Source of the DNA: Candidatus Margulisiibacteriota bacterium
GTDB taxonomy: Bacteria > Margulisbacteria > Marinamargulisbacteria > JBFWNS01
Length of the DNA stretch: 64,000 nt
Direction: 5' to 3'
NCBI GenBank assembly: GCA_050250935.1
Contig: JBFWNS010000001.1
Coordinates: forward strand, 130,102 to 194,101
Under the pieces are notes generated by a model. It was not told the DNA's origin. It did no database searches and saw nothing but the letters and a program-made list of their open reading frames with translations. Shown here piece by piece: positions 26,968-63,571 of this stretch. A program made the position numbers and the translations under genes. The stretch's first letter is position 1. Each line of letters opens with the position of its first letter.

Positions 26968-27378
26968 TTATATAAAAGATACTTGTTCTTCAAAAAAAGC
27001 CTTGTCTTTGGGATGACTTAGTTTGTCGGCAATGTCGGCTTTGTCCAGCCACAGGGCTTCGGGGTTTTCGGGATCGGTTGGGGCCAATTCGGTTTGGGTG
27101 GTGGTGAATAAAAAGAATTCGATGCGTTTAAGCTCTGAGTGGTCTTCCCCACCATTTTTGCCAATGCGATACCGTTCGTAAAACCCCAGGTAACGCACCA
27201 AGGTGAGGTCCGTCACACCGGTTTCTTCGGCAATTTCTCGCTTGGCTGCATCAAGCAGGGTTTCGCCAGGGTCCACGTGGCCTTTGGGCAAGGACCACGA
27301 GGTGCCATGTTGGCAGGTGATAAGCACCTGCCCATGGCGATTAAGGACAATGCCACCCGCGCTGATGGTTTTTTCCAT
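26968..27378 (-). CDS. NUDIX hydrolase
   Basis: Nudix box GHVDPGETLLDAAKREIAEETGV. Confidence 0.8.
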   Translation of the reverse strand: MEKTISAGGIVLNRHGQVLITCQHGTSWSLPKGHVDPGETLLDAAKREIAEETGVTDLTLVRYLGFYERYRIGKNGGEDHSELKRIEFFLFTTTQTELAPTDPENPEALWLDKADIADKLSHPKDKAFFEEQVSFI

Positions 27379-29069
27379 CAGAACAGGTTTTTGTCGGTGA
27401 CAGCGCCTTCGGAGGCTGAAGTCGTCAGTTTGGCAAATTTGGCCAAGACCCCACGGGTGTAACGGGGCGCTGGTTGCTTCCAGGCTGCCAACCGGGCTTG
27501 AAGTTCAGCATCGGGAACGTGAACATTGACCTCGTGTTTTTCGGCATCGATGGTGATGGTATCGCCGTTCTGAATCACGGCAATCACCCCACCGTCAAAG
27601 GCTTCTGGTGTGATGTGTCCCACCACAAAACCATGGGTTCCGCCTGAAAATCGGCCGTCGGTAATTAAGGCAACATCCTTGCCCAGGCCACGACCCATCA
27701 CCGCCGAGGTTGGGGACAACATTTCCCGCATCCCAGGTCCGCCTTTAGGACCTTCATAGCGAATGACGATCACGTCGCCTTTAACAATCCCGCCATCCAA
27801 AATGCTTTTGAGGGCTGCTTCTTCCGAATCAAACACCTTGGCCTTACCTTCAAATTTGAGGCCTTCTTTGCCAGAAATTTTGGCGACGCCGCCCTTAGAC
27901 GCCACGTTGCCGTAACACACCACCAAATGCCCTTGCGATTTGATGGGATTGGACAAGGGACGAACCACTTCTTGACCCGTGGGATAAGGCGCAACATCGG
28001 CCAAGTTTTCGGCAAGGGTTTTGCCCGTCACCGTCAGACAATCGCCATGCAGCAACCCAGCGTCCAATAAAATCTTCATCAAAGGGGTCACACCACCAAT
28101 TTCCACCAACTTGGACATGGTAAACCGGCCGCTGGGTTTTAAATCCGCCAACACCGGTACTTTTTGACCAATACGGGTAAAATCGTCCAAGGTTAGGGGA
28201 ATACCAGCCGTATGGGCAATGGCCAACAAATGCAGCACGGCGTTGGTGGATCCTCCCAAAGCCGTGACCACCACAATGGCATTTTCCAAGGACTTTTTGG
28301 TGACGATATCCAAGGGTTTTAAATTGGCTTGAAGCAAGGCATAAACGGCTTTTCCCGCGTTACGACAGTCTTCTTTTTTATGCTCGGAAACCGCCGCTTG
28401 GGCCGAACTATTTGGCAAACTCAGCCCCATGGCCTCGATGGCCGATGCCATGGTGTTGGCCGTGTACATACCCCCACAAGAACCAGGGCCTGGAATCGCA
28501 CATTTTTCGACTTCTGTCAGTTCGGCAGCATCGATTTTGTTGTTGGCAAATGCCCCGACGGCTTCGAAAACAGAGACCACATCTTGGTCTTTGTTTTTGT
28601 GGCATCCTGGCAAAATGGTCCCGCCATATACAAACACGGAGGGACGGTTCATCCGCAACATGGCCATGACACAGGCCGGCATGTTTTTGTCGCAGCCCCC
28701 AATGGCCACAAACCCATCCAAATTTTCGCAACCCACCACCGTTTCGATGGAATCGGCAATGACTTCTCGGGAAACCAGGGAATATTTCATGCCTTCTGTT
28801 CCCATGGAAATCCCATCAGAAATCGTGATGGTGTTAAAAATAATGGCTTTTCCACCCGCTTCGTTAGCCCCAGCTTCGGCTTCTCTGGCCAAGCCATCGA
28901 TGTGCATATTACACGGGGTTACCATACTCCAGGTCGAAGCAATCCCGATTTGGGGTTTGTTAAAATCCTCGTCGTTAAAGCCCACGGCCCGCAACATGGC
29001 GCGGGAAGGGGCTCGGTCGTAGCCGTCTGTCATCTGAGAAGAAAAATGTCGGGGGTTGTGTGAGCTCAT
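27378..29069 (-). CDS. ilvD: Dihydroxy-acid dehydratase
   Basis: 563 aa; IlvD/EDD family pattern including cysteine cluster region (CDKNMPA) and C-terminal [10 protein letters not shown]. Confidence 0.9.
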
Positions 29070-29149
29070 AACATCTCCAATGGGTAAAAGATTATCAACA
29101 GGGCATCGAAATAATGGGAAAGAATTCTAGCACTTTTTTGGGTTTAATG

Positions 29150-29380
29150 TTAGGCTCTTGCCTGGTTTTTATCAGGGAAATTGGGCGAAAAACCCAGCTG
29201 TCCCGCAACTGTGAAGCGACTTCATAGAGCCTATCCCGATTTGACAGATGCAAGGCAAAGACAAGTAAAAAAACCGGAATTTAGCTACCTAAATGAGGAT
29301 TTTTTTAGCTTGGCTTTAACGCAGCAGATACAAATGCGGATAGTCTCCAGTGGAAGTAGCCTAGTCAGAATGCCTGAAAT
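29150..29380 (+). promoter_or_regulatory. Cobalamin (B12) riboswitch in the leader of the TonB-dependent receptor gene
   Basis: Core CAGGGAAATTGGGCGAAAAACCCAGCTGTCCCGCAACTGTGAAG (29173-29216) follows the conserved GGGAA...GGTG..AA..CC..GCTG.CCCGC.ACTGT pattern; B12-box-like TAGTCAGAATGCCTG at 29362-29376; ends about 50 nt before the btuB-like start. Boundaries approximate. Confidence 0.7.
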
Positions 29381-29427
29381 CAACCCCAATTTACCCCATG
29401 CCCGTGGATAGGCATTAAGGAGTTTTT

Positions 29428-31299
29428 ATGCGCGTAGACGTTGTGTTTAAGCAAGTCTTGCTTGCTGTTGTGTGTATGTGTTGGTCGGGGCTAGTGATGG
29501 CCCAAACCGAGCCCAGTATAGCGCTTCCCGAAACTGTGGTCAGTGCAACCAAGTTTCCAAGACTCAGTTCGCAAGTCGCCGAAGATGTGTTTGTGATCAC
29601 CTCGAAAAATATGGAAGCAGCCGGGGTTAAAAACATCAAACAAGCCTTGATGTTGGTTCCTGGCTTAACCGTTTCGGATACGGGCGGGGCAACGCCAACA
29701 ACCCTTTTCTTACATGGGTTTCAATCTTACCAAATTTTGGTCCTCAAAGACGGCATGCCCATCAACGACACCATTTCTCCGCAGCCCATTGCCTATTTGG
29801 ATTCGCTTTCCATCGATGATATTGATCGGGTCGAGGTGATGTTCAATTCCAAAAGTGTGCTCTATGGTAGCCAAGCCATGGCTGGCGTTATTCAAATTTT
29901 TTCGAATACCGACGCCAATCAGGTTCATTATGTTCAGGGCTGGGACCACGGCAAAACCTCGGCTCAACTTAGCCGGCAATTTGGCAGTGCCAAAGTCTCG
30001 TTTTCGGGCAGTTACGAAAACGATTGGCGGCAGTCTTCTTACATCAATACCAGCGAACGCGATCGCAAAGAGAGGTCTACTTTTTCGGCTTATGTTGAAA
30101 ATGACTTTGGCTTTTTTAAGGGGGCTTTCCGCTACAACAAGAACAAAGCTACTCTGGGCTTAGATCGTGCCGACTATGTCTATGTTGGCCCTGGCTATGC
30201 CGAGGTTCGCATCGACGATACCAACGACAACCTACAAACCGAACAAAATTTAACCTCCTTAAGCTTGGAAACCTCGGTTATCCCCCTCACCACCACGGTG
30301 TTACAAGGGAGCATTTCCAACATCACCCGCTTGGAACTGAACCAAGCCGATGAGGCATTGAACAGTAACGTGGTGTCTCAATTTTGGGGAGTGACCCGGC
30401 GCTTGGAACTGCGTAACGAAACCCTACTGTCTTCGGAATGGGCAGCCACCTATGGGTTTGACCTTCAAATCGAGGAAGGATCTTCGGATTATTGGCATCC
30501 GCTGTATCCCAGCTCTTTTCCAGCCCAATCGCAGGAAAGCCAAGGCTATTTTGGGCAACTGCAATACACCACGCCAGGCTTTGGGGTTTCGGCCGGGCAT
30601 CGGGTTCATATGGATCACACCCAGCACATTTTAAAAGCCTATTCTTTGGGCAGTTACTACCGGGTTGAAGCCTTGGATCTGTTGGTCAAACCCAGCATTG
30701 GCACCAGTTTCCGAGAAGCCGGCTTATTTGAGCGCTTTGATAGCTATACCGGAAACCCCGATTTTCAACCCGAAACCACCCTCTCCAAGGACCTGCTGTT
30801 GGAAAAACCCCTGGGACCCGTTGTCTTAAGCTGGCGTTGGTTTGAAAACCAGACCTCCAACCTGATTACCTATGATGATTTGAATACCTTCAAATACATC
30901 CAAAACACCGGTACCGCTATAGCAACCGGTCAAGACTATGCCCTATCCATTCGAAATCTCGGCCCGCTTCAGTTTTTAAAAGCGTCTTACACCCGTCTTT
31001 CTGCCAAAGACAAAACCATTTTGAAAACCCCAGACTGGCAGGCCAACTTAAATGGGGGATTCGTTTTCGATGCCTGGCGTTACGGTTTCGACGCTGCTTG
31101 GGTAGGCTCGCGCTTGGATTCGGCCAGCAAACCGTTGGACGCCTATTTTCAGCTTAATTTGCGCGGGGCTTATCAATGGGGCCCTCAAACGCAATTGGAA
31201 GTCATTTTGTTTAATGCCTTGAATTCCCATCACCAAGAGGTGTACGGATTTAACTCCCACGAACGCAATGTCTACTTTGGCATCAAGCAACAGTTTTAA
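29428..31299 (+). CDS. btuB: TonB-dependent outer-membrane receptor, BtuB-like (putative cobalamin transporter)
   Basis: Signal peptide, TonB-box-like ETVVSAT, plug-domain motifs, C-terminal ...GIKQQF; size (623 aa) and upstream B12 riboswitch support a BtuB-type role. Confidence 0.8.
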   Translation: MRVDVVFKQVLLAVVCMCWSGLVMAQTEPSIALPETVVSATKFPRLSSQVAEDVFVITSKNMEAAGVKNIKQALMLVPGLTVSDTGGATPTTLFLHGFQSYQILVLKDGMPINDTISPQPIAYLDSLSIDDIDRVEVMFNSKSVLYGSQAMAGVIQIFSNTDANQVHYVQGWDHGKTSAQLSRQFGSAKVSFSGSYENDWRQSSYINTSERDRKERSTFSAYVENDFGFFKGAFRYNKNKATLGLDRADYVYVGPGYAEVRIDDTNDNLQTEQNLTSLSLETSVIPLTTTVLQGSISNITRLELNQADEALNSNVVSQFWGVTRRLELRNETLLSSEWAATYGFDLQIEEGSSDYWHPLYPSSFPAQSQESQGYFGQLQYTTPGFGVSAGHRVHMDHTQHILKAYSLGSYYRVEALDLLVKPSIGTSFREAGLFERFDSYTGNPDFQPETTLSKDLLLEKPLGPVVLSWRWFENQTSNLITYDDLNTFKYIQNTGTAIATGQDYALSIRNLGPLQFLKASYTRLSAKDKTILKTPDWQANLNGGFVFDAWRYGFDAAWVGSRLDSASKPLDAYFQLNLRGAYQWGPQTQLEVILFNALNSHHQEVYGFNSHERNVYFGIKQQF

Positions 31300-32587
31300 C
31301 ACAACGCTTGCTGAAGCGCTGAACAAAAAAATTGGCCTCTACGAACTGTTTCAAATCGTCGAGGCCCTACCCGCCTTACCGGCCAGATCCGAACACATCC
31401 TCTTGGCCACCTTGCCTGGGGATGTGCACCGGCTGGGCACCCGCATTACCCAAGCTTTGCTTGAAAAGGCAGGGTGTCGGGTAGACGTGCACTGGGAAAT
31501 GACGCCCCAGGCCTTGACCCTCTATTTGGCAAACAACAACCCCACCCATATTGTGATGACCTGTTTTTTAACCGCCCAACTGGATTTTTTCGGGGCCTTG
31601 GTCCCCCAGTTGGTCCAAACACAGACTTGTTTGGTTTTGGGTGGATTTGCGTTTTCTCCCCGGACCTTGTCGACGCGATTTAGCACCTTGGCCCCTAAAA
31701 CCGTGCATCCCAAAAACGGCGTCGAAGCTGCGGGGTTTATTTTACAAGCCTGGCCCTTGCCTTGGGTTTCCAGCCTGACGTTTTCGCCAGATCTCGACAC
31801 TGATCGAAGCAAAAAATGCGCCCCGGTCGCGGTTCAAACCCCTTGCCTGCCCCATTCTTTTTCGCCCATCACCCAAACCGATTTTAACCTGGAAACCCTG
31901 TGGGATGCCATTAATCCACGAACCCTCTACAATTTGCATTTGGGCTTCAAGGGCAACCCGCATCAAGCCCAGGGGAATCCCCTGTTTACCGCAATAACAG
32001 AGCGGTTTAATCGCCTAAAACCCCTGGCACATCGGCTCTTTGAACCCCAGGCATTGTGGCAACATTTTAAAGCCAAAAGCAACCACGATCAGATTTGGGT
32101 GTATCCCGAAGCTTCGGCCCCAGTAAGCTGGGATTTCCCCCGAAAAAATGGGATTTGCCTTGCCGATTATCTGCGTCACGACACCGACGATTTTATCACC
32201 CTCATGGCTGTGACCATTGGAAAAGTCGCGGGAGACCACACCGAAACCCTGTTTCAGCAAGGCCGCTTTACCGACATGCTGTGCTGGCATGCCCTGACCG
32301 TTCAAAGTGCCGAAGCTTTGGCCGAAACCGTTCATGCCCAGTTGCGGCGTATGCACGGTGACGAAGACAGCCCCCCCGATGCCCAATCCCTGTGGGATGC
32401 CCGCTACACCGGCAAACGCTACAGCTTTGGCTACGCGGCTTGCCCCGATTTACGAGGACAGGCCCTATTTTTTAAGTTGCTAAAACCCGAAACCATCGGG
32501 ATTCATCTTTCCGAATCGATGATGATGAACCCCGAAGCTTCGGTGAATGCTCTGGTGTTTTACCACCCCGCTGCTGCCTATTTTTGA
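31268..32587 (+). CDS. Stand-alone cobalamin-binding protein resembling the B12-binding and AdoMet reactivation domains of methionine synthase (no catalytic barrels)
   Basis: N-terminal half has the B12-binding DxHxxG motif (LPGDVHRLG); C-terminal half ends ...RYSFGYAACPDL...IGIHLSESMMMNPEASVNALVFYHPAAAYF, the hallmark of the MetH activation domain. Start overlaps the receptor gene by 32 nt; no signal peptide. Confidence 0.7.
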   Translation: MSTLASSNSFNTTLAEALNKKIGLYELFQIVEALPALPARSEHILLATLPGDVHRLGTRITQALLEKAGCRVDVHWEMTPQALTLYLANNNPTHIVMTCFLTAQLDFFGALVPQLVQTQTCLVLGGFAFSPRTLSTRFSTLAPKTVHPKNGVEAAGFILQAWPLPWVSSLTFSPDLDTDRSKKCAPVAVQTPCLPHSFSPITQTDFNLETLWDAINPRTLYNLHLGFKGNPHQAQGNPLFTAITERFNRLKPLAHRLFEPQALWQHFKAKSNHDQIWVYPEASAPVSWDFPRKNGICLADYLRHDTDDFITLMAVTIGKVAGDHTETLFQQGRFTDMLCWHALTVQSAEALAETVHAQLRRMHGDEDSPPDAQSLWDARYTGKRYSFGYAACPDLRGQALFFKLLKPETIGIHLSESMMMNPEASVNALVFYHPAAAYF

Positions 32588-32854: not shown

Positions 32855-35716
32855 CTACCGCCAATAGCGCCCTACGGTGATGTTGATTGTCTGATGGTCG
32901 GTGTCGTCGTTGAGCATGTACGAGGCGTTGCTGCCAAAGCTGAAGAGGCGGACGCCCATCATGTCGGCCCAAATATCCCCATCCATGACTTCAAAAAACT
33001 CACCTGTGCCATCGAAGGCCACATCGATTTTGTCCGTTTGACCCGAGCTGACCAAATCGTACCAAACCACCAATCGATAGCTGGAATTCCGGGACAAAAT
33101 GCTGTCGGTTTTGGTAAACGTGGGTAAGGTATAGCTGGATTGACGATTGCCGGCCAATACCGACTCCATAGATCCAAGACTGTACACCATCGACTGACTG
33201 GATGGTCCCGTCACGGGGGTTTTGGCACCGGCAGAGAAGAAATAGTCCGACCAAACACCGGCATCGGATCCACCCATTTTAAACAAGCCCACTTTCCATG
33301 TACCGGTTTGACCTACGCCAACCCGAGAACTTAGCGTCGATGGGAAGGTTACAGTCCCGTTCAACCCAATGCTCCACGGTGTGGCAGCCCCAACTTTAAA
33401 GCTGGTTCGGCTTTCAGCGCCTTGCCAAACCACACGTCCAGACGATTGCTCCACCAAGACGGGCATGATGTTGAGTTCGTAGGTGGTTTCGTAGTTGTTC
33501 CCGATATCGCGAACCGTACGGGCCAACTGCTGTTTCAACTGGAAGGAATTCCCTTGGATAAAGCGATTGTCTTGCCAAGAGCTCCAAATAAATTTCCATT
33601 TGTAGTTATCACCACTGGAATCCCAGCTTCCGGAGGGATTAAAGGTATTGTTGTTCCAATCCACTTTAATGGCCGAGAGCCCCAGGTTGATGGCATAGGC
33701 CAAGAAATAGCCATCGGGTACCGTACCAGTCGGTGTATCCCATTGCAGGTTGGGTTGGGCTTTATCCGTATCAACATCCACATCCATGGTTTGCATTTCA
33801 AACGTGTCGTCCCAGCCTGTGGCTTGTACTCTGGCCATGTCCATGCCCCGTGGGTTCCGCCAATTAATCAGGCCAATGCTGGGTTTCAAAATTCTGACCG
33901 TTGTTGATGTCAACACATTGTTGTCGGCATCCAGCACCTTAATCGTGGCCGTTCCCGAAATGTAATCCGTCACAAAGGTGGGGGTAAAGTCTCCAGAAAA
34001 ACCTGTATTTTGATAAGGCGAGATGATCCAGGTGACATCGAAAGGATTATCCAAGGCCTTTTTGGATTGAGCAGCATTAAATGCCGAAATGGCAACCAGG
34101 GATTGAGACGATCTTAACGCTTGGGGATTCCCAATCGATTGGGGGTTATTGCCAGCAGAAACGCGTTGGTATTCCACCGTTTGCGTTCCGGTCGAGGTGG
34201 GGTATTCCAAAACCACACGGGCAGCCGCTGCAGAAGCGTTTTCTGCATAAAGAACCACGCGAGAATCCAAGGCATCGGTGGGTTGCCAGTTGTTGTCCGA
34301 TACTTGTCTATAGGCCCGAACAGGAACCAAAGAGGTTTCAACAATGTAATAGCGCCCGGTTTGAATGCTTACAAAATTAATGGCCTTAAGCAATACAAAC
34401 GGATCAAAAACGGGGCCATCGTGGGTAAAAAACTCATTTCGAACCATCAGCGGCAAAGAACTTCCATCCAATAATCCTGCTTGAATCATGACGGCAATGG
34501 CCTGAGGAACCGTCATGGTTTGGCTTTCGGTAATGGGCAATGTCCACCGGTTGTTTTTGGGGAAAATAACCCGCATGGCCGGCATCGTCGTGGTATCGGA
34601 CGTCGCGGTGGCATCGTAAAAGGCGTATAACTTTCTAAGTTGTGAATTATCTTGATTCATAACCCCCAACATTTCTGCCTTAACATTAGCAACCGACCAA
34701 TAGTCCGACTTTAACTCCCCTTCTGGCAAACTCTCGTTAAACGCCTGGGCAAACTCGGCAATGGTTACCGTTACACCATTCAAATAGCCCGTTGCAAATT
34801 GCTCAATAAAAAATTCTGGTGGCACGCCAACCGAAGATCCGTCTTTGGATCCGCCACCACTTTTACCCCCAAAAATGGACCGAATAATTTGTTTGGCACG
34901 ATCTAGGGTTAAGGTCGCATTAACCTGAGAATCCAAAGCGGCTTGTTGGGCCAATTTTCGTAAATCATCGTCGTTTTGCAACTGCTCGACGATTAGTTTT
35001 TGGGTATCGTCGGGCGCAGGAAACACGTCTTTATTCACCGTAGCATCGGTGGTTGGCTTGACCGGAGACACCCGCTGAATTTCCCCAGAGCTGAGTTTTG
35101 AATTGATGGTATCGGTGATTTTTTGTGTCAATTCGTCGGACAAATCCCCGCTGAATTTATTCCCGTTTCCTTTGGCTACTTTTTCGACCACATAATCCAC
35201 AATAGCCCGGGTCTTTTCAGAGACGTTGGCCGACACGGCCGTTTCTCCGCTTTTAACGTTCACATAGGTGTCCATGCGCAACACGTTTTGGGCTCCGGAA
35301 GAATCTGTCCCTGTTTTGACAATCCCGACCACATATTTTTTACCGTCTGCTATATTTTTGAATTCGTAAGCGCCATCCACCACATTGGCTGTAATGCCCG
35401 TGGGAATAACAGTGCCATCAGATCCAATTTCATATAAAATGGCTGTCCCATCCGACAAAGTCGAAATGTCCGACAAATGTTTTGTGAAGGCTTGAGACAA
35501 CCTTTTGGACGACGACAAACTGCTAATCGAAGACACCGGATTGGTAATCCCCACCTGGCTTTGATCTTGAGCCGATGCAATGACATAGCCACTTAAGGTG
35601 GTGGCCCCCGCATAACTGGTGGTCGAGGTTGTCGACGTGGTGGATTCCGATGCTTTTCCACAGCCCCCCAAAGCCAAAATGAATATCAGCGGAACCGCTG
35701 CAAACCACGTTTTCAT
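32855..35716 (-). CDS. Large predicted lipoprotein of unknown function
   Basis: Start set at MKTWF (ATG 35716, GGAGGG RBS 7 nt upstream); lipobox LALGGC followed by Ser/Thr-rich linker; ~950 aa with no recognised catalytic motif. Confidence 0.6.
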   Translation of the reverse strand: MKTWFAAVPLIFILALGGCGKASESTTSTTSTTSYAGATTLSGYVIASAQDQSQVGITNPVSSISSLSSSKRLSQAFTKHLSDISTLSDGTAILYEIGSDGTVIPTGITANVVDGAYEFKNIADGKKYVVGIVKTGTDSSGAQNVLRMDTYVNVKSGETAVSANVSEKTRAIVDYVVEKVAKGNGNKFSGDLSDELTQKITDTINSKLSSGEIQRVSPVKPTTDATVNKDVFPAPDDTQKLIVEQLQNDDDLRKLAQQAALDSQVNATLTLDRAKQIIRSIFGGKSGGGSKDGSSVGVPPEFFIEQFATGYLNGVTVTIAEFAQAFNESLPEGELKSDYWSVANVKAEMLGVMNQDNSQLRKLYAFYDATATSDTTTMPAMRVIFPKNNRWTLPITESQTMTVPQAIAVMIQAGLLDGSSLPLMVRNEFFTHDGPVFDPFVLLKAINFVSIQTGRYYIVETSLVPVRAYRQVSDNNWQPTDALDSRVVLYAENASAAAARVVLEYPTSTGTQTVEYQRVSAGNNPQSIGNPQALRSSQSLVAISAFNAAQSKKALDNPFDVTWIISPYQNTGFSGDFTPTFVTDYISGTATIKVLDADNNVLTSTTVRILKPSIGLINWRNPRGMDMARVQATGWDDTFEMQTMDVDVDTDKAQPNLQWDTPTGTVPDGYFLAYAINLGLSAIKVDWNNNTFNPSGSWDSSGDNYKWKFIWSSWQDNRFIQGNSFQLKQQLARTVRDIGNNYETTYELNIMPVLVEQSSGRVVWQGAESRTSFKVGAATPWSIGLNGTVTFPSTLSSRVGVGQTGTWKVGLFKMGGSDAGVWSDYFFSAGAKTPVTGPSSQSMVYSLGSMESVLAGNRQSSYTLPTFTKTDSILSRNSSYRLVVWYDLVSSGQTDKIDVAFDGTGEFFEVMDGDIWADMMGVRLFSFGSNASYMLNDDTDHQTINITVGRYWR

Positions 35717-35876
35717 CTCTGTCCCTCCATTTTTGAAACTGTTTCGTTCATTATACATACTTCTTGCCCCTTTCCCAAAATTTTGAGGTTTTAAACCTGT
35801 TTTTTTAATCGAAAATTAGTTTTCTATTTGTGAAGGGGGATTCAAAAATGGTATTCTGATCCTCACTTTTACCCCT

Positions 35877-63495: not shown

Positions 63496-63571
<76 letters not shown>

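What the first reader, a model, noticed from the sequence alone, without database searches (positions are those of the whole stretch)
29150..29380. Cobalamin riboswitch in the btuB-like leader
The leader has the conserved core GGGAA...GGGCGAAAA.CCCAGCTG.CCCGCAACTGT and a B12-box-like AGTCAGAATGCCTG about 150 nt downstream, ending just before the receptor RBS. This gives a sequence-level regulatory rationale for the downstream two-gene module. A spurious 76-aa ORF (29181-29411) lies inside it.
Basis: partly seen in the sequence, partly recalled or inferred. Interest (0 to 1): 0.5.

Follow-up and report, generated by a model that had tools for sequence, protein, structure and literature searches.

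The report
Divergent B12 riboswitch with oversized P6 arm
The leader of a vitamin-B12 receptor gene in an uncultured Margulisbacteria genome is very probably a real vitamin-B12-sensing RNA switch, but standard databases miss it because one small loop has been replaced by a 129-base hairpin arm.

Summary
The cobalamin-type core (29175-29212) and the B12 box (29364-29377) are both present. Comparative evidence still supports the interpretation. An independent metagenomic locus (L004) with the same operon type has a compact homologous leader. All junctions are identical. Of 26 homologous base pairs, 16 are identical, 8 compensatory, 0 one-sided and 2 broken. A model built from L004 alone hits only this leader (E about 2e-6). 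In the window, L004's 7-nt L6 loop is replaced by two base pairs plus a 129-nt rod (29224-29352), so the aptamer spans 29164-29385. It has no P2 module (class-II-like) but a P6 arm longer than class I. The expression platform is inferred only, probably Shine-Dalgarno sequestration; no convincing L13 kissing partner was found. Verdict: a divergent cobalamin riboswitch and a new architectural variant of a known kind, of modest interest.

The parts
29164..29167 (+). P1, 5' strand (GGUU); pairs with 29382-29385
   Evidence: 4 Watson-Crick pairs. The homologous helix in L004 is UUGC/GCAA, so all 4 pairs are compensatory. The register depends on J1/3 length, so on its own this is modest evidence.
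29168..29171 (+). J1/3 internal loop or bulge, 5' side (UUUA); there is no P2 stem-loop module here
   Evidence: Read from the sequence and the constrained fold. Absence of a P2 module is the class-II trait as defined in PMC7367189.
29172..29176 (+). P3, 5' strand (UCAGG); pairs with 29373-29377
   Evidence: 5 of 5 Watson-Crick pairs, identical in L004.
29177..29181 (+). J3/4 (GAAAU), part of the conserved GGGAA core
   Evidence: Identical in L004. Matches the GGGAA of the RF00174 and RF01482 consensus.
29182..29196 (+). P4 stem (UGGG/CCCA) with 7-nt L4 loop CGAAAAA
   Evidence: The stem is identical in L004 and the loop differs (UGAGAAU). Aligned to P4 of RF01482.
29199..29207 (+). P5 (UG/CA) with L5 loop UCCCG, the loop that forms the regulatory kissing interaction in known cobalamin riboswitches
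   Evidence: Identical in L004. Aligned to the P5/L5 CCC loop of the Rfam models.
29209..29223 (+). P6, 5' strand: P6a CUG (29209-29211), internal loop UGA (29212-29214), P6b AGCGACUUC (29215-29223)
   Evidence: P6a pairs with 29366-29368, and U-A here is C-G in L004. P6b pairs with 29353-29362 in the same register as L004, including a bulged pyrimidine (C29360 / U1740), with 3 compensatory pairs.
29224..29352 (+). Distal P6 rod: 129 nt standing where L004 has the inner 5 nt of its 7-nt L6 loop CAUUUGA (the two outer loop positions are base-paired in the window); an irregular hairpin with an A7/U7 helix near its tip
   Evidence: 29209-29368 folds alone into one continuous rod closed by P6a, -44.2 kcal/mol, z = -3.04. 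There is no other copy in the window, no Rfam family, and GC is 0.40 against 0.48 for the core.
29353..29368 (+). P6, 3' strand: P6b GAAGUAGCCU (29353-29362), internal loop AGU (29363-29365), P6a CAG (29366-29368)
29364..29377 (+).
   Evidence: Unique best match in the window to L004's box (15/18). It is the only 3' partner in the leader giving 8/8 Watson-Crick pairs for P6a plus P3. J6/3 is identical to L004.
29382..29385 (+). P1, 3' strand (AACC)
29393..29423 (+). Candidate expression platform: hairpin ACCCCAUGCC-CGUGGAUA-GGCAUUAAGGAGU with the SD (AAGGAG 29417-29422) in its 3' strand; P13-like
   Evidence: Present in the MFE folds but not better than shuffles (z = -0.58). The loop offers only GGA to pair with UCC of L5. 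Inferred, not shown.
29428..31299 (+). Regulated gene 1: BtuB-like TonB-dependent receptor (623 aa)
   Evidence: Plug domain. Best NCBIfam match is TIGR01779, the vitamin B12 receptor, E=2e-41 over its full length but below the equivalog cut-off. Distant homologues lie behind RF00174 riboswitches.
31268..32587 (+). Regulated gene 2: stand-alone MetH-like cobalamin-binding plus activation (AdoMet) module (439 aa)
   Evidence: PF02310 (below its cut-off) and PF02965. Aligns to MetH 749-1175. GDVHRLG fits the DxHxxG motif.
29181..29411 (+). 76-aa TTG ORF inside the riboswitch: spurious
   Evidence: Not conserved in L004 (read by eye).

Best explanation
Window 29164-29385 is the aptamer of a divergent cobalamin (vitamin B12) riboswitch in the 5' leader of a two-gene operon encoding a BtuB-like outer-membrane receptor and a MetH-like cobalamin-binding protein. 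Shown by sequence and comparison: the four-way junction P3-P4-P5-P6 with the conserved J3/4 (GGGAAAU), the L5 CCC loop, the UGA/AGU internal loop in P6, the J6/3-P3 'B12 box' and a closing P1. Architecturally it has no P2 module, which is class-II-like. L004's 7-nt L6 loop is replaced by two base pairs plus a 129-nt rod, giving a P6 arm longer than that of class I. Inferred from the known behaviour of the family: when cobalamin is plentiful it binds the junction and stabilises P1/P3/P6, the ribosome-binding site (AAGGAG 29417-29422) becomes sequestered, and translation of the receptor operon is repressed. When B12 is scarce the operon is expressed. No intrinsic terminator lies between the aptamer and the start codon, which favours translational (or Rho-dependent) control.
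For: The core and box are present. RF01482 gives a sub-threshold but non-random hit, E=0.0015. The L004 leader, upstream of the same operon type, is homologous: 5' core 40/45 identical, and its 3' box has its unique best match in the whole window at 29362. A model built from L004 alone finds only this leader in 137 kb, 32.7 bits, E about 2e-6. Pair comparison of 26 homologous pairs gives 16 identical, 8 compensatory, 0 one-sided and 2 broken, with all junctions identical. The tool count on the rod-excised alignment gives 95% of cells paired against 21-45% when slid, and 4 compensatory pairs against 0-1. The far-box model is 20 kcal/mol better than Rfam's compact model. P6 plus the rod folds as one hairpin closed by the CUG/CAG pairs, z=-3.0. 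Context is B12-related: the receptor best matches the B12-receptor model, its distant homologues lie behind canonical RF00174 riboswitches of 76-113 bits, and gene 2 binds cobalamin. No + strand terminator-like site lies between 29386 and 29427.
Against: No family of the Rfam cobalamin clan reaches its gathering score, either here or in L004. Only two leaders of this subfamily could be obtained, so covariation rests on one pairwise comparison, and the shuffle control is weak (39/500). Covariance models and MAFFT prefer nearer pseudo-boxes (29222-29242 and 29245-29265) when the arm is left in. No convincing L13 partner for L5 exists downstream: there is no GGG and only a 3-bp GGA:UCC option. 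The SD hairpin is not more stable than shuffles. The arm has lower GC than the core and could be a recent disruptive insertion. No ligand-binding or expression data exist.
Confidence: 0.8

Rival explanations
1. Compact riboswitch, as aligned by Rfam. The aptamer is 29149-29265, with P3 at 29162-29173/29254-29265 and the P6 3' strand at CAG 29245-29247. It is followed by an A7-hairpin-U7 element (29267-29306) acting as a terminator. The distal box at 29364 would then be irrelevant.
For: This is the alignment chosen by RF01482 (29.7 bits) and roughly by MAFFT. P3 would have 10 of 12 pairs. A U7 run follows the hairpin.
Against: The constrained fold is 20 kcal/mol worse than the far model. The pseudo-box is not the segment conserved with L004; the best ungapped match of L004's box anywhere outside 29362 is 11/18. 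The best near candidates give only 7 of 8 pairs for P6a plus P3. The hairpin is not terminator-like by the scan because it has too few G-C pairs. In L004 the same Rfam model uses the box homologous to 29364. This alignment leaves the 15/18 conserved distal box and the P6b covariation unexplained.
Confidence: 0.05
2. Decayed or disabled riboswitch. An ancestral compact class-II-like aptamer was split by insertion of about 129 nt of foreign or expanded sequence into L6. It no longer binds B12 or no longer regulates, and the operon is constitutive or controlled otherwise.
For: Sub-threshold Rfam score. In solved structures L6 docks into L4 (PMC7367189), and that loop is gone. The arm has lower GC than the core. 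There is no clear L13 partner.
Against: Every junction nucleotide and helix of the core is intact and identical or compensated relative to L004, which would not be expected after loss of function unless the insertion is very recent. The insert extends P6b by two pairs and forms a continuous rod (z=-3.0) rather than a random interruption. A 3x5 internal loop (AUA / CAGUG) sits just where L6 was and could take over L4 docking, as internal loops do in class I. The arm is not a repeat in the window.
Confidence: 0.12
3. Chance resemblance: an unstructured AT-rich leader, or a leader-peptide ORF of 76 aa, with no riboswitch.
For: The MFE of the whole leader is not significantly better than shuffles (z=-1.7). 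An ORF spans the region.
Against: E about 2e-6 for the independent L004 model. Junction identity and compensatory pairs. The ORF has no family and is not conserved in L004 (read).
Confidence: 0.02

Closest known systems
Class-II cobalamin riboswitches (Cbl-IIa/IIb; Rfam RF01482 'AdoCbl' and RF01689 'AdoCbl-variant')
   Same: There is no P2 loop-stem-loop between P1 and P3, only a short J1/3 bulge or mismatch. The P3-P6 four-way junction, the L4 7-nt loop and the L5 CCC loop are present. RF01482 is the best-scoring Rfam model for both the window (29.7 bits) and L004 (42.4 bits). L004 has the short P6 hairpin typical of the class (definitions from PMC7367189).
   Different: Both leaders stay below the gathering score of 50. 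The window has a roughly 160-nt P6 arm instead of a short loop or hairpin, so the L4-L6 loop-loop docking described for class II cannot occur in the same form. The 3' box (AGUCAG-AAUG-CCUG) looks more like the RF00174 B12 box than the RF01482 J6/3 consensus (GUCUUU) seen. The window has no P13 loop resembling the RF01482 consensus, whereas L004 does.
Class-I cobalamin riboswitches (Rfam RF00174; e.g. E. coli btuB, and the leaders of L001, L007 and L008 here)
   Same: Same ligand-binding core consensus (GGGAA, P4, GCUG.CCCGCAACUGU, B12 box). A long P6 extension. Location upstream of btuB-type receptors.
   Different: There is no P2 module. RF00174 is not the best clan model and gives no hit at its gathering score of 31.5. 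By eye, the arm lacks the conserved GCCACUG...CGGGAAGGC motif of P7-P11 seen. It is about twice as long.
B. subtilis yvrC 'atypical' cobalamin riboswitch (PMC7367189)
   Same: A natural hybrid that mixes class-I and class-II peripheral elements around the same core.
   Different: yvrC has a P2 module plus a short P6. The window has the reciprocal combination, no P2 module plus a very long P6.

Membership tests
Cobalamin riboswitch (clan CL00101, biological class) | Four-way junction of P3, P4, P5 and P6 closed by P1/P3 | tested here: met
   All helices can form. Of the 21 pairs in P3, P4, P5, P6a and P6b, 95% of cells are paired across the window and L004, against 21-45% when the partners are slid. 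P1 is also present.
Cobalamin riboswitch (clan CL00101, biological class) | Conserved core nucleotides: GGGAA in J3/4, the GC.G.CCCGC.ACUG segment with the L5 CCC loop, and a B12 box (AGYCMG..A..CCUG) forming the P6 3' strand, J6/3 and the P3 3' strand | tested here: met
   The box at 29364-29377 is the only 8/8 Watson-Crick partner for P6a plus P3 in the leader.
Cobalamin riboswitch (clan CL00101, biological class) | Covariation supporting the helices | tested here: met
   8 compensatory pairs, 0 one-sided and 2 broken out of 26. This rests on a single pairwise comparison, so the evidence is thin but consistent.
Cobalamin riboswitch (clan CL00101, biological class) | L5-L13 kissing loop linking the aptamer to the expression platform | tested here: inconclusive
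   L5 UCCCG is present. Downstream there is no GGG, and the best candidate loop, CGUGGAUA (29403-29410), offers 3 bp. The hairpin is not better than shuffles.
Cobalamin riboswitch (clan CL00101, biological class) | Binds a cobalamin and represses the downstream gene | not testable with these tools
   Needs in-line probing, ITC or a reporter assay.
Cobalamin riboswitch (clan CL00101, biological class) | Located in the 5' leader of a B12 transport, synthesis or B12-related gene | tested here: met
   BtuB-like receptor plus a cobalamin-binding protein.
Rfam RF01482 (AdoCbl) | Score at or above the gathering threshold of 50 bits | tested here: not met
   29.7 bits for the window and 42.4 bits for L004.
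Rfam RF00174 (Cobalamin) | Score at or above the gathering threshold of 31.5 bits | tested here: not met
   No hit at gathering score. In the E-value scan it scored below RF01482 and was hidden by the clan filter. Positive controls L001, L007 and L008 score 76-113 bits.
Class-II cobalamin riboswitch (Cbl-II) | No P2 module; J1/3 bulge or mismatch between P1 and P3 | tested here: met
   Only 4 nt (29168-29171) lie between P1 and P3. Definition from PMC7367189.
Class-II cobalamin riboswitch (Cbl-II) | Short P6 (a loop or short hairpin) | tested here: not met
   P6 plus the arm spans 29209-29368, 160 nt. L004 meets this feature.
Class-I cobalamin riboswitch (Cbl-I) | P2 loop-stem-loop module and the conserved P7-P11 extension | tested here: not met
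   There is no P2 module. By eye, the arm lacks the GCCACUG...GGGAAGGC motif (compare), and the arm alone matches no Rfam family.

The most novel reading that the evidence does not exclude
The oversized P6 arm may be part of the switch rather than a passive insertion. The base of the arm (29342-29367) is strongly complementary to the 5' leader (29149-29166): -19.8 kcal/mol, reached by 5 of 3000 shuffles but by 0.3-0.6% of window tiles. That would give an alternative 'aptamer-off' conformer. In addition, the conserved AUG inside J6/3 opens a short uORF in both known leaders that ends next to the receptor's SD, so burial of J6/3 by ligand could gate uORF-coupled translation. Together with the unusual cargo, a stand-alone MetH cobalamin and activation module always placed behind a BtuB-like receptor, this could define a new cobalamin-riboswitch subclass controlling a previously undescribed B12-handling protein.
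Probability: 0.12. Interest if true: 0.6.

Novelty: new variant of a known kind. Interest (0 to 1): 0.35.

Why it matters
The case shows that a genuine cobalamin riboswitch can be missed by every Rfam model of the clan when a peripheral loop is expanded. It also supplies a second natural hybrid architecture, no P2 module plus a very long P6 arm, which is the reciprocal of B. subtilis yvrC. That bears on the debate over whether peripheral elements dictate ligand selectivity. In practice it links a BtuB-like receptor and a stand-alone MetH-like cobalamin and activation protein to B12-responsive control in Margulisbacteria and other uncultured lineages. This points to B12 scavenging and gives a handle on a protein of unknown role. 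It is not a new regulatory principle.

Tried and rejected
- **Rfam at gathering score over the window:** no cobalamin hit.
- **Orthologous leaders via the receptor protein:** only distant relatives with canonical RF00174 were found. The exact-protein lookup found no contig.
- **Collection scans for the core:** two metagenome pattern scans, one viral scan and a plasmid BLAST all returned nothing. Both metagenome patterns required the window's exact spacing around P4. L004 fits the looser one (my reading), which suggests this P4 spacing is rare rather than that the scans were too narrow.
- **Further gene-2 homologues:** P0029 and P0008 are true split-MetH halves without a receptor. P0019 and P0027 lie at the wrong contig end. 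P0006's contig has the same two-gene module but no DNA was available.
- **Model built from L004:** it confirms homology but picks a pseudo-box at 29222-29242 because of the insertion penalty. An 'insertion-tolerant' model with synthetic inserts was abandoned, because MAFFT and sequence weighting would turn the inserts into noisy match columns.
- **The arm as a repeat, MITE or known RNA:** rejected.
- **A7-hairpin-U7 as terminator:** not terminator-like by the scan.
- **SD hairpin and 5'-leader/SD duplex:** neither is above background.
- **The 76-aa ORF as a gene:** rejected.

Full report
**What is there.** The window comes from a Candidatus Margulisiibacteriota MAG; the receptor protein is 100% identical to an NCBI entry of that name. 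The 358-nt intergenic region 29070-29427 lies between a divergently transcribed ilvD (27378-29069, minus strand) and a plus-strand operon. The operon encodes a TonB-dependent receptor (29428-31299) and a 439-aa protein (31268-32587). The 439-aa protein carries a B12-binding domain and a methionine-synthase activation domain. The receptor's best NCBIfam match is the vitamin-B12 receptor model TIGR01779 (E=2e-41, full length, far below the equivalog cut-off). The 76-aa TTG ORF 29181-29411 exists but has no Pfam match.

A gathering-threshold Rfam scan of the whole window finds only a tRNA. A permissive scan of 29000-29500 gives RF01482 (AdoCbl) at 29.7 bits (gathering score 50, E=0.0015) over 29149-29304. 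RF00174 scores lower still. It pairs the core with a nearer pseudo-box (CAG 29245-29247, P3 3' strand 29254-29265) and matches an AU-rich hairpin at 29270-29300 to the model's 3' hairpin. The tool does detect ordinary cobalamin riboswitches: the leaders of three distant homologues of this receptor (L001, L007, L008/L009) give RF00174 hits of 76-113 bits. Those hits also show that this receptor family is generally under B12-riboswitch control.

**Comparative evidence.** The receptor has almost no close relatives among 5.8 billion proteins. Two metagenome pattern scans for the core returned nothing. Homologues of gene 2 led to locus L004, an ENA metagenome contig. There a BtuB-like receptor, a beta-propeller-like protein and a gene-2 homologue form one operon. 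Its roughly 190-nt leader is plainly homologous to the window leader but compact:

- The 5' cores are 40/45 identical.
- L004's 18-nt 3' element GAGTCGGAATGCCTGAAG has its single best ungapped match in the entire 64-kb window, on either strand, at 29362 (15/18). The next best is 13/18, three times. The best elsewhere in the leader is 11/18.
- L004 scores 42.4 bits on RF01482 (E=7e-7, still under 50), and there the model uses the box homologous to 29364.
- A covariance model built from L004 alone finds the window leader as the only significant hit in 137 kb (32.7 bits, E about 2e-6). To avoid a long insertion it chooses a third pseudo-box at 29222-29242.

**Structure.** Under the far-box model all helices form in both leaders, as follows.

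| Helix | Window coordinates | Sequence |
|---|---|---|
| P1 | 29164-29167 / 29382-29385 | GGUU / AACC |
| P3 | 29172-29176 / 29373-29377 | UCAGG / CCUGA |
| P4 | 29182-29185 / 29193-29196 | UGGG / CCCA |
| P5 | 29199-29200 / 29206-29207 | UG / CA |
| P6a | 29209-29211 / 29366-29368 | CUG / CAG |
| P6b | 29215-29223 / 29353-29362 | AGCGACUUC / GAAGUAGCCU |

All junctions are identical in the two leaders: J3/4 GAAAU, J4/5 GC, L5 UCCCG, the P6 internal loop UGA/AGU, and J6/3 AAUG. The L4 loop differs. Of 26 homologous pairs, 16 are identical, 8 are compensatory (4 in P1, 1 in P6a, 3 in P6b), none is one-sided and 2 are broken, one in each leader. P6b keeps the same register, including a bulged pyrimidine (C29360 / U1740).

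The pair-counting tool was run on an alignment with the distal rod excised. It gives 95% of cells paired, against 21-45% when the partners are slid. It gives 4 compensatory pairs, against 0-1 in the slid controls. P1 was left out of that count because the J1/3 lengths differ. With two sequences the shuffle control is weak (39/500). The box at 29366 with a 4-nt J6/3 is the only 3' partner in the leader giving 8/8 Watson-Crick pairs for P6a plus P3. The far model is 20 kcal/mol more stable than Rfam's compact model, -70.3 against -50.7 kcal/mol.

**The unusual part.** L004 closes P6b with the 7-nt loop CAUUUGA. The window instead adds two more pairs and then a 129-nt distal rod (29224-29352). 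Folded on its own, 29209-29368 forms one continuous irregular hairpin closed by the P6a pairs (-44.2 kcal/mol, z=-3.04; 2 of 200 shuffles fold as well). The rod has no other copy in the window, matches no Rfam family, and is somewhat AT-richer than the core (GC 0.40 against 0.48). A 3x5 internal loop (AUA / CAGUG) sits exactly where L6 was.

In the published classification (PMC7367189), Cbl-I has a P2 module and a long P6 extension (P7-P11). Cbl-II has neither. B. subtilis yvrC is a hybrid with a P2 module and a short P6. L004 is class-II-like. The window leader is the reciprocal hybrid: no P2 module, and a P6 arm longer than class I. By eye, the arm lacks the conserved GCCACUG...GGGAAGGC motif seen. 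This arm, together with the general divergence of the subfamily, explains why the Rfam models miss it.

**Mechanism.** Homology and structure of the aptamer are shown. What follows is inferred from the family. Cobalamin binding should stabilise the junction and P1, and switch off expression of the receptor operon. No terminator-like site lies on the plus strand between the aptamer and the start codon, so control is probably translational. The SD AAGGAG (29417-29422) can be drawn into the 3' strand of a hairpin (29393-29423) that resembles P13. That hairpin is no more stable than shuffles (z=-0.6). Its loop offers only GGA to pair with UCC of L5, and the window has no GGG such as L004 provides. 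Pairing of the 5' leader with the SD is not above the window background. The 5' leader (29149-29166) pairs well with the base of the arm (29342-29367): -19.8 kcal/mol, reached by 5 of 3000 shuffles but also by 0.3-0.6% of tiles across the window. This is a suggestive alternative conformer, not proof. The expression platform is therefore unresolved.

**Rivals.**
- The compact Rfam-style aptamer with a terminator is disfavoured by energy, by conservation and by the terminator scan.
- A riboswitch disabled by a recent insertion cannot be excluded. It is disfavoured by the intact core and by the way the arm continues P6.
- Chance resemblance or a leader peptide is excluded by the L004 comparison.

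**Verdict.** This is a divergent cobalamin riboswitch, a new architectural variant of a well-known kind, and of modest interest. Confidence is about 0.8 that it is a cobalamin-riboswitch homologue with the structure given. It is lower, about 0.65, that it is a working B12-responsive switch.

Noticed in passing
window 31268-32587 (+); L004 5001-6383; L002 1197-2543; L006 1458-2732: Gene 2 is a stand-alone MetH-like protein with only the cobalamin-binding and AdoMet activation modules. It aligns to MetH 749-1175 and carries GDVHRLG (fits DxHxxG) and KRYSFGY (RxxxGY-like, my reading of the sequence). It has no homocysteine, folate or cap domains and no obvious signal peptide. In four uncultured lineages it sits directly behind a BtuB-like receptor and/or a beta-propeller-like protein. 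True split-MetH halves (P0029, P0008) instead sit next to S-methyl_trans and Pterin_bind genes. Repressing a MetH part when B12 is plentiful makes little sense, so it may be a B12-handling accessory. One literature search found no description of it.
   Followed up: partly
window 29370-29411 (+); L004 1750-1785 (+): The conserved J6/3 'AAUG' contains an AUG that opens a short uORF in both leaders: MPEINPNLPHARG* in the window and MPEAILEQPSR* in L004. Each stops within a few bases of the receptor's SD. Neither AUG has a good SD in front, so this may be chance. It does recall the uORF-coupled atypical B12 riboswitches of M. tuberculosis (PMC11260477; only the title and abstract snippet were seen).
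   Followed up: partly
L004 3865-4995 (+); L002 47-1189 (+): A roughly 380-aa protein with weak DUF5074, NHL or WD-like (beta-propeller) signals lies between the receptor and the gene-2 homologue in L004, and just upstream of the gene-2 homologue in the Marinamargulisbacteria contig L002. The window operon lacks it. It may be a surface B12-binding accessory, but this was not tested.
   Followed up: no
window 29267-29306 (+): Near the tip of the P6 arm an A7 run and a U7 run flank an AU-rich hairpin (AAAAAAACCGGAAUUUAGCUACCUAAAUGAGGAUUUUUUU). It looks like a bidirectional terminator but has too few G-C pairs to be flagged by the scan. Rfam matched it to the 3' hairpin of RF01482.
   Followed up: partly
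window 29091-29153 (-): Two sigma-70-like promoter matches on the minus strand, facing ilvD (27378-29069), lie just upstream of or overlapping the 5' edge of the riboswitch leader. No plus-strand promoter match was found for the receptor operon; by eye there is only a weak TTTAAT at 29143-29148.
   Followed up: no
window 32855-35758 (-): A 967-aa ORF immediately downstream of the operon, convergent with it, has no Pfam match at all.
   Followed up: no
window 63498-63570 (-): A tRNA gene (76.6 bits) is the only Rfam hit at gathering score in the whole window.
   Followed up: no
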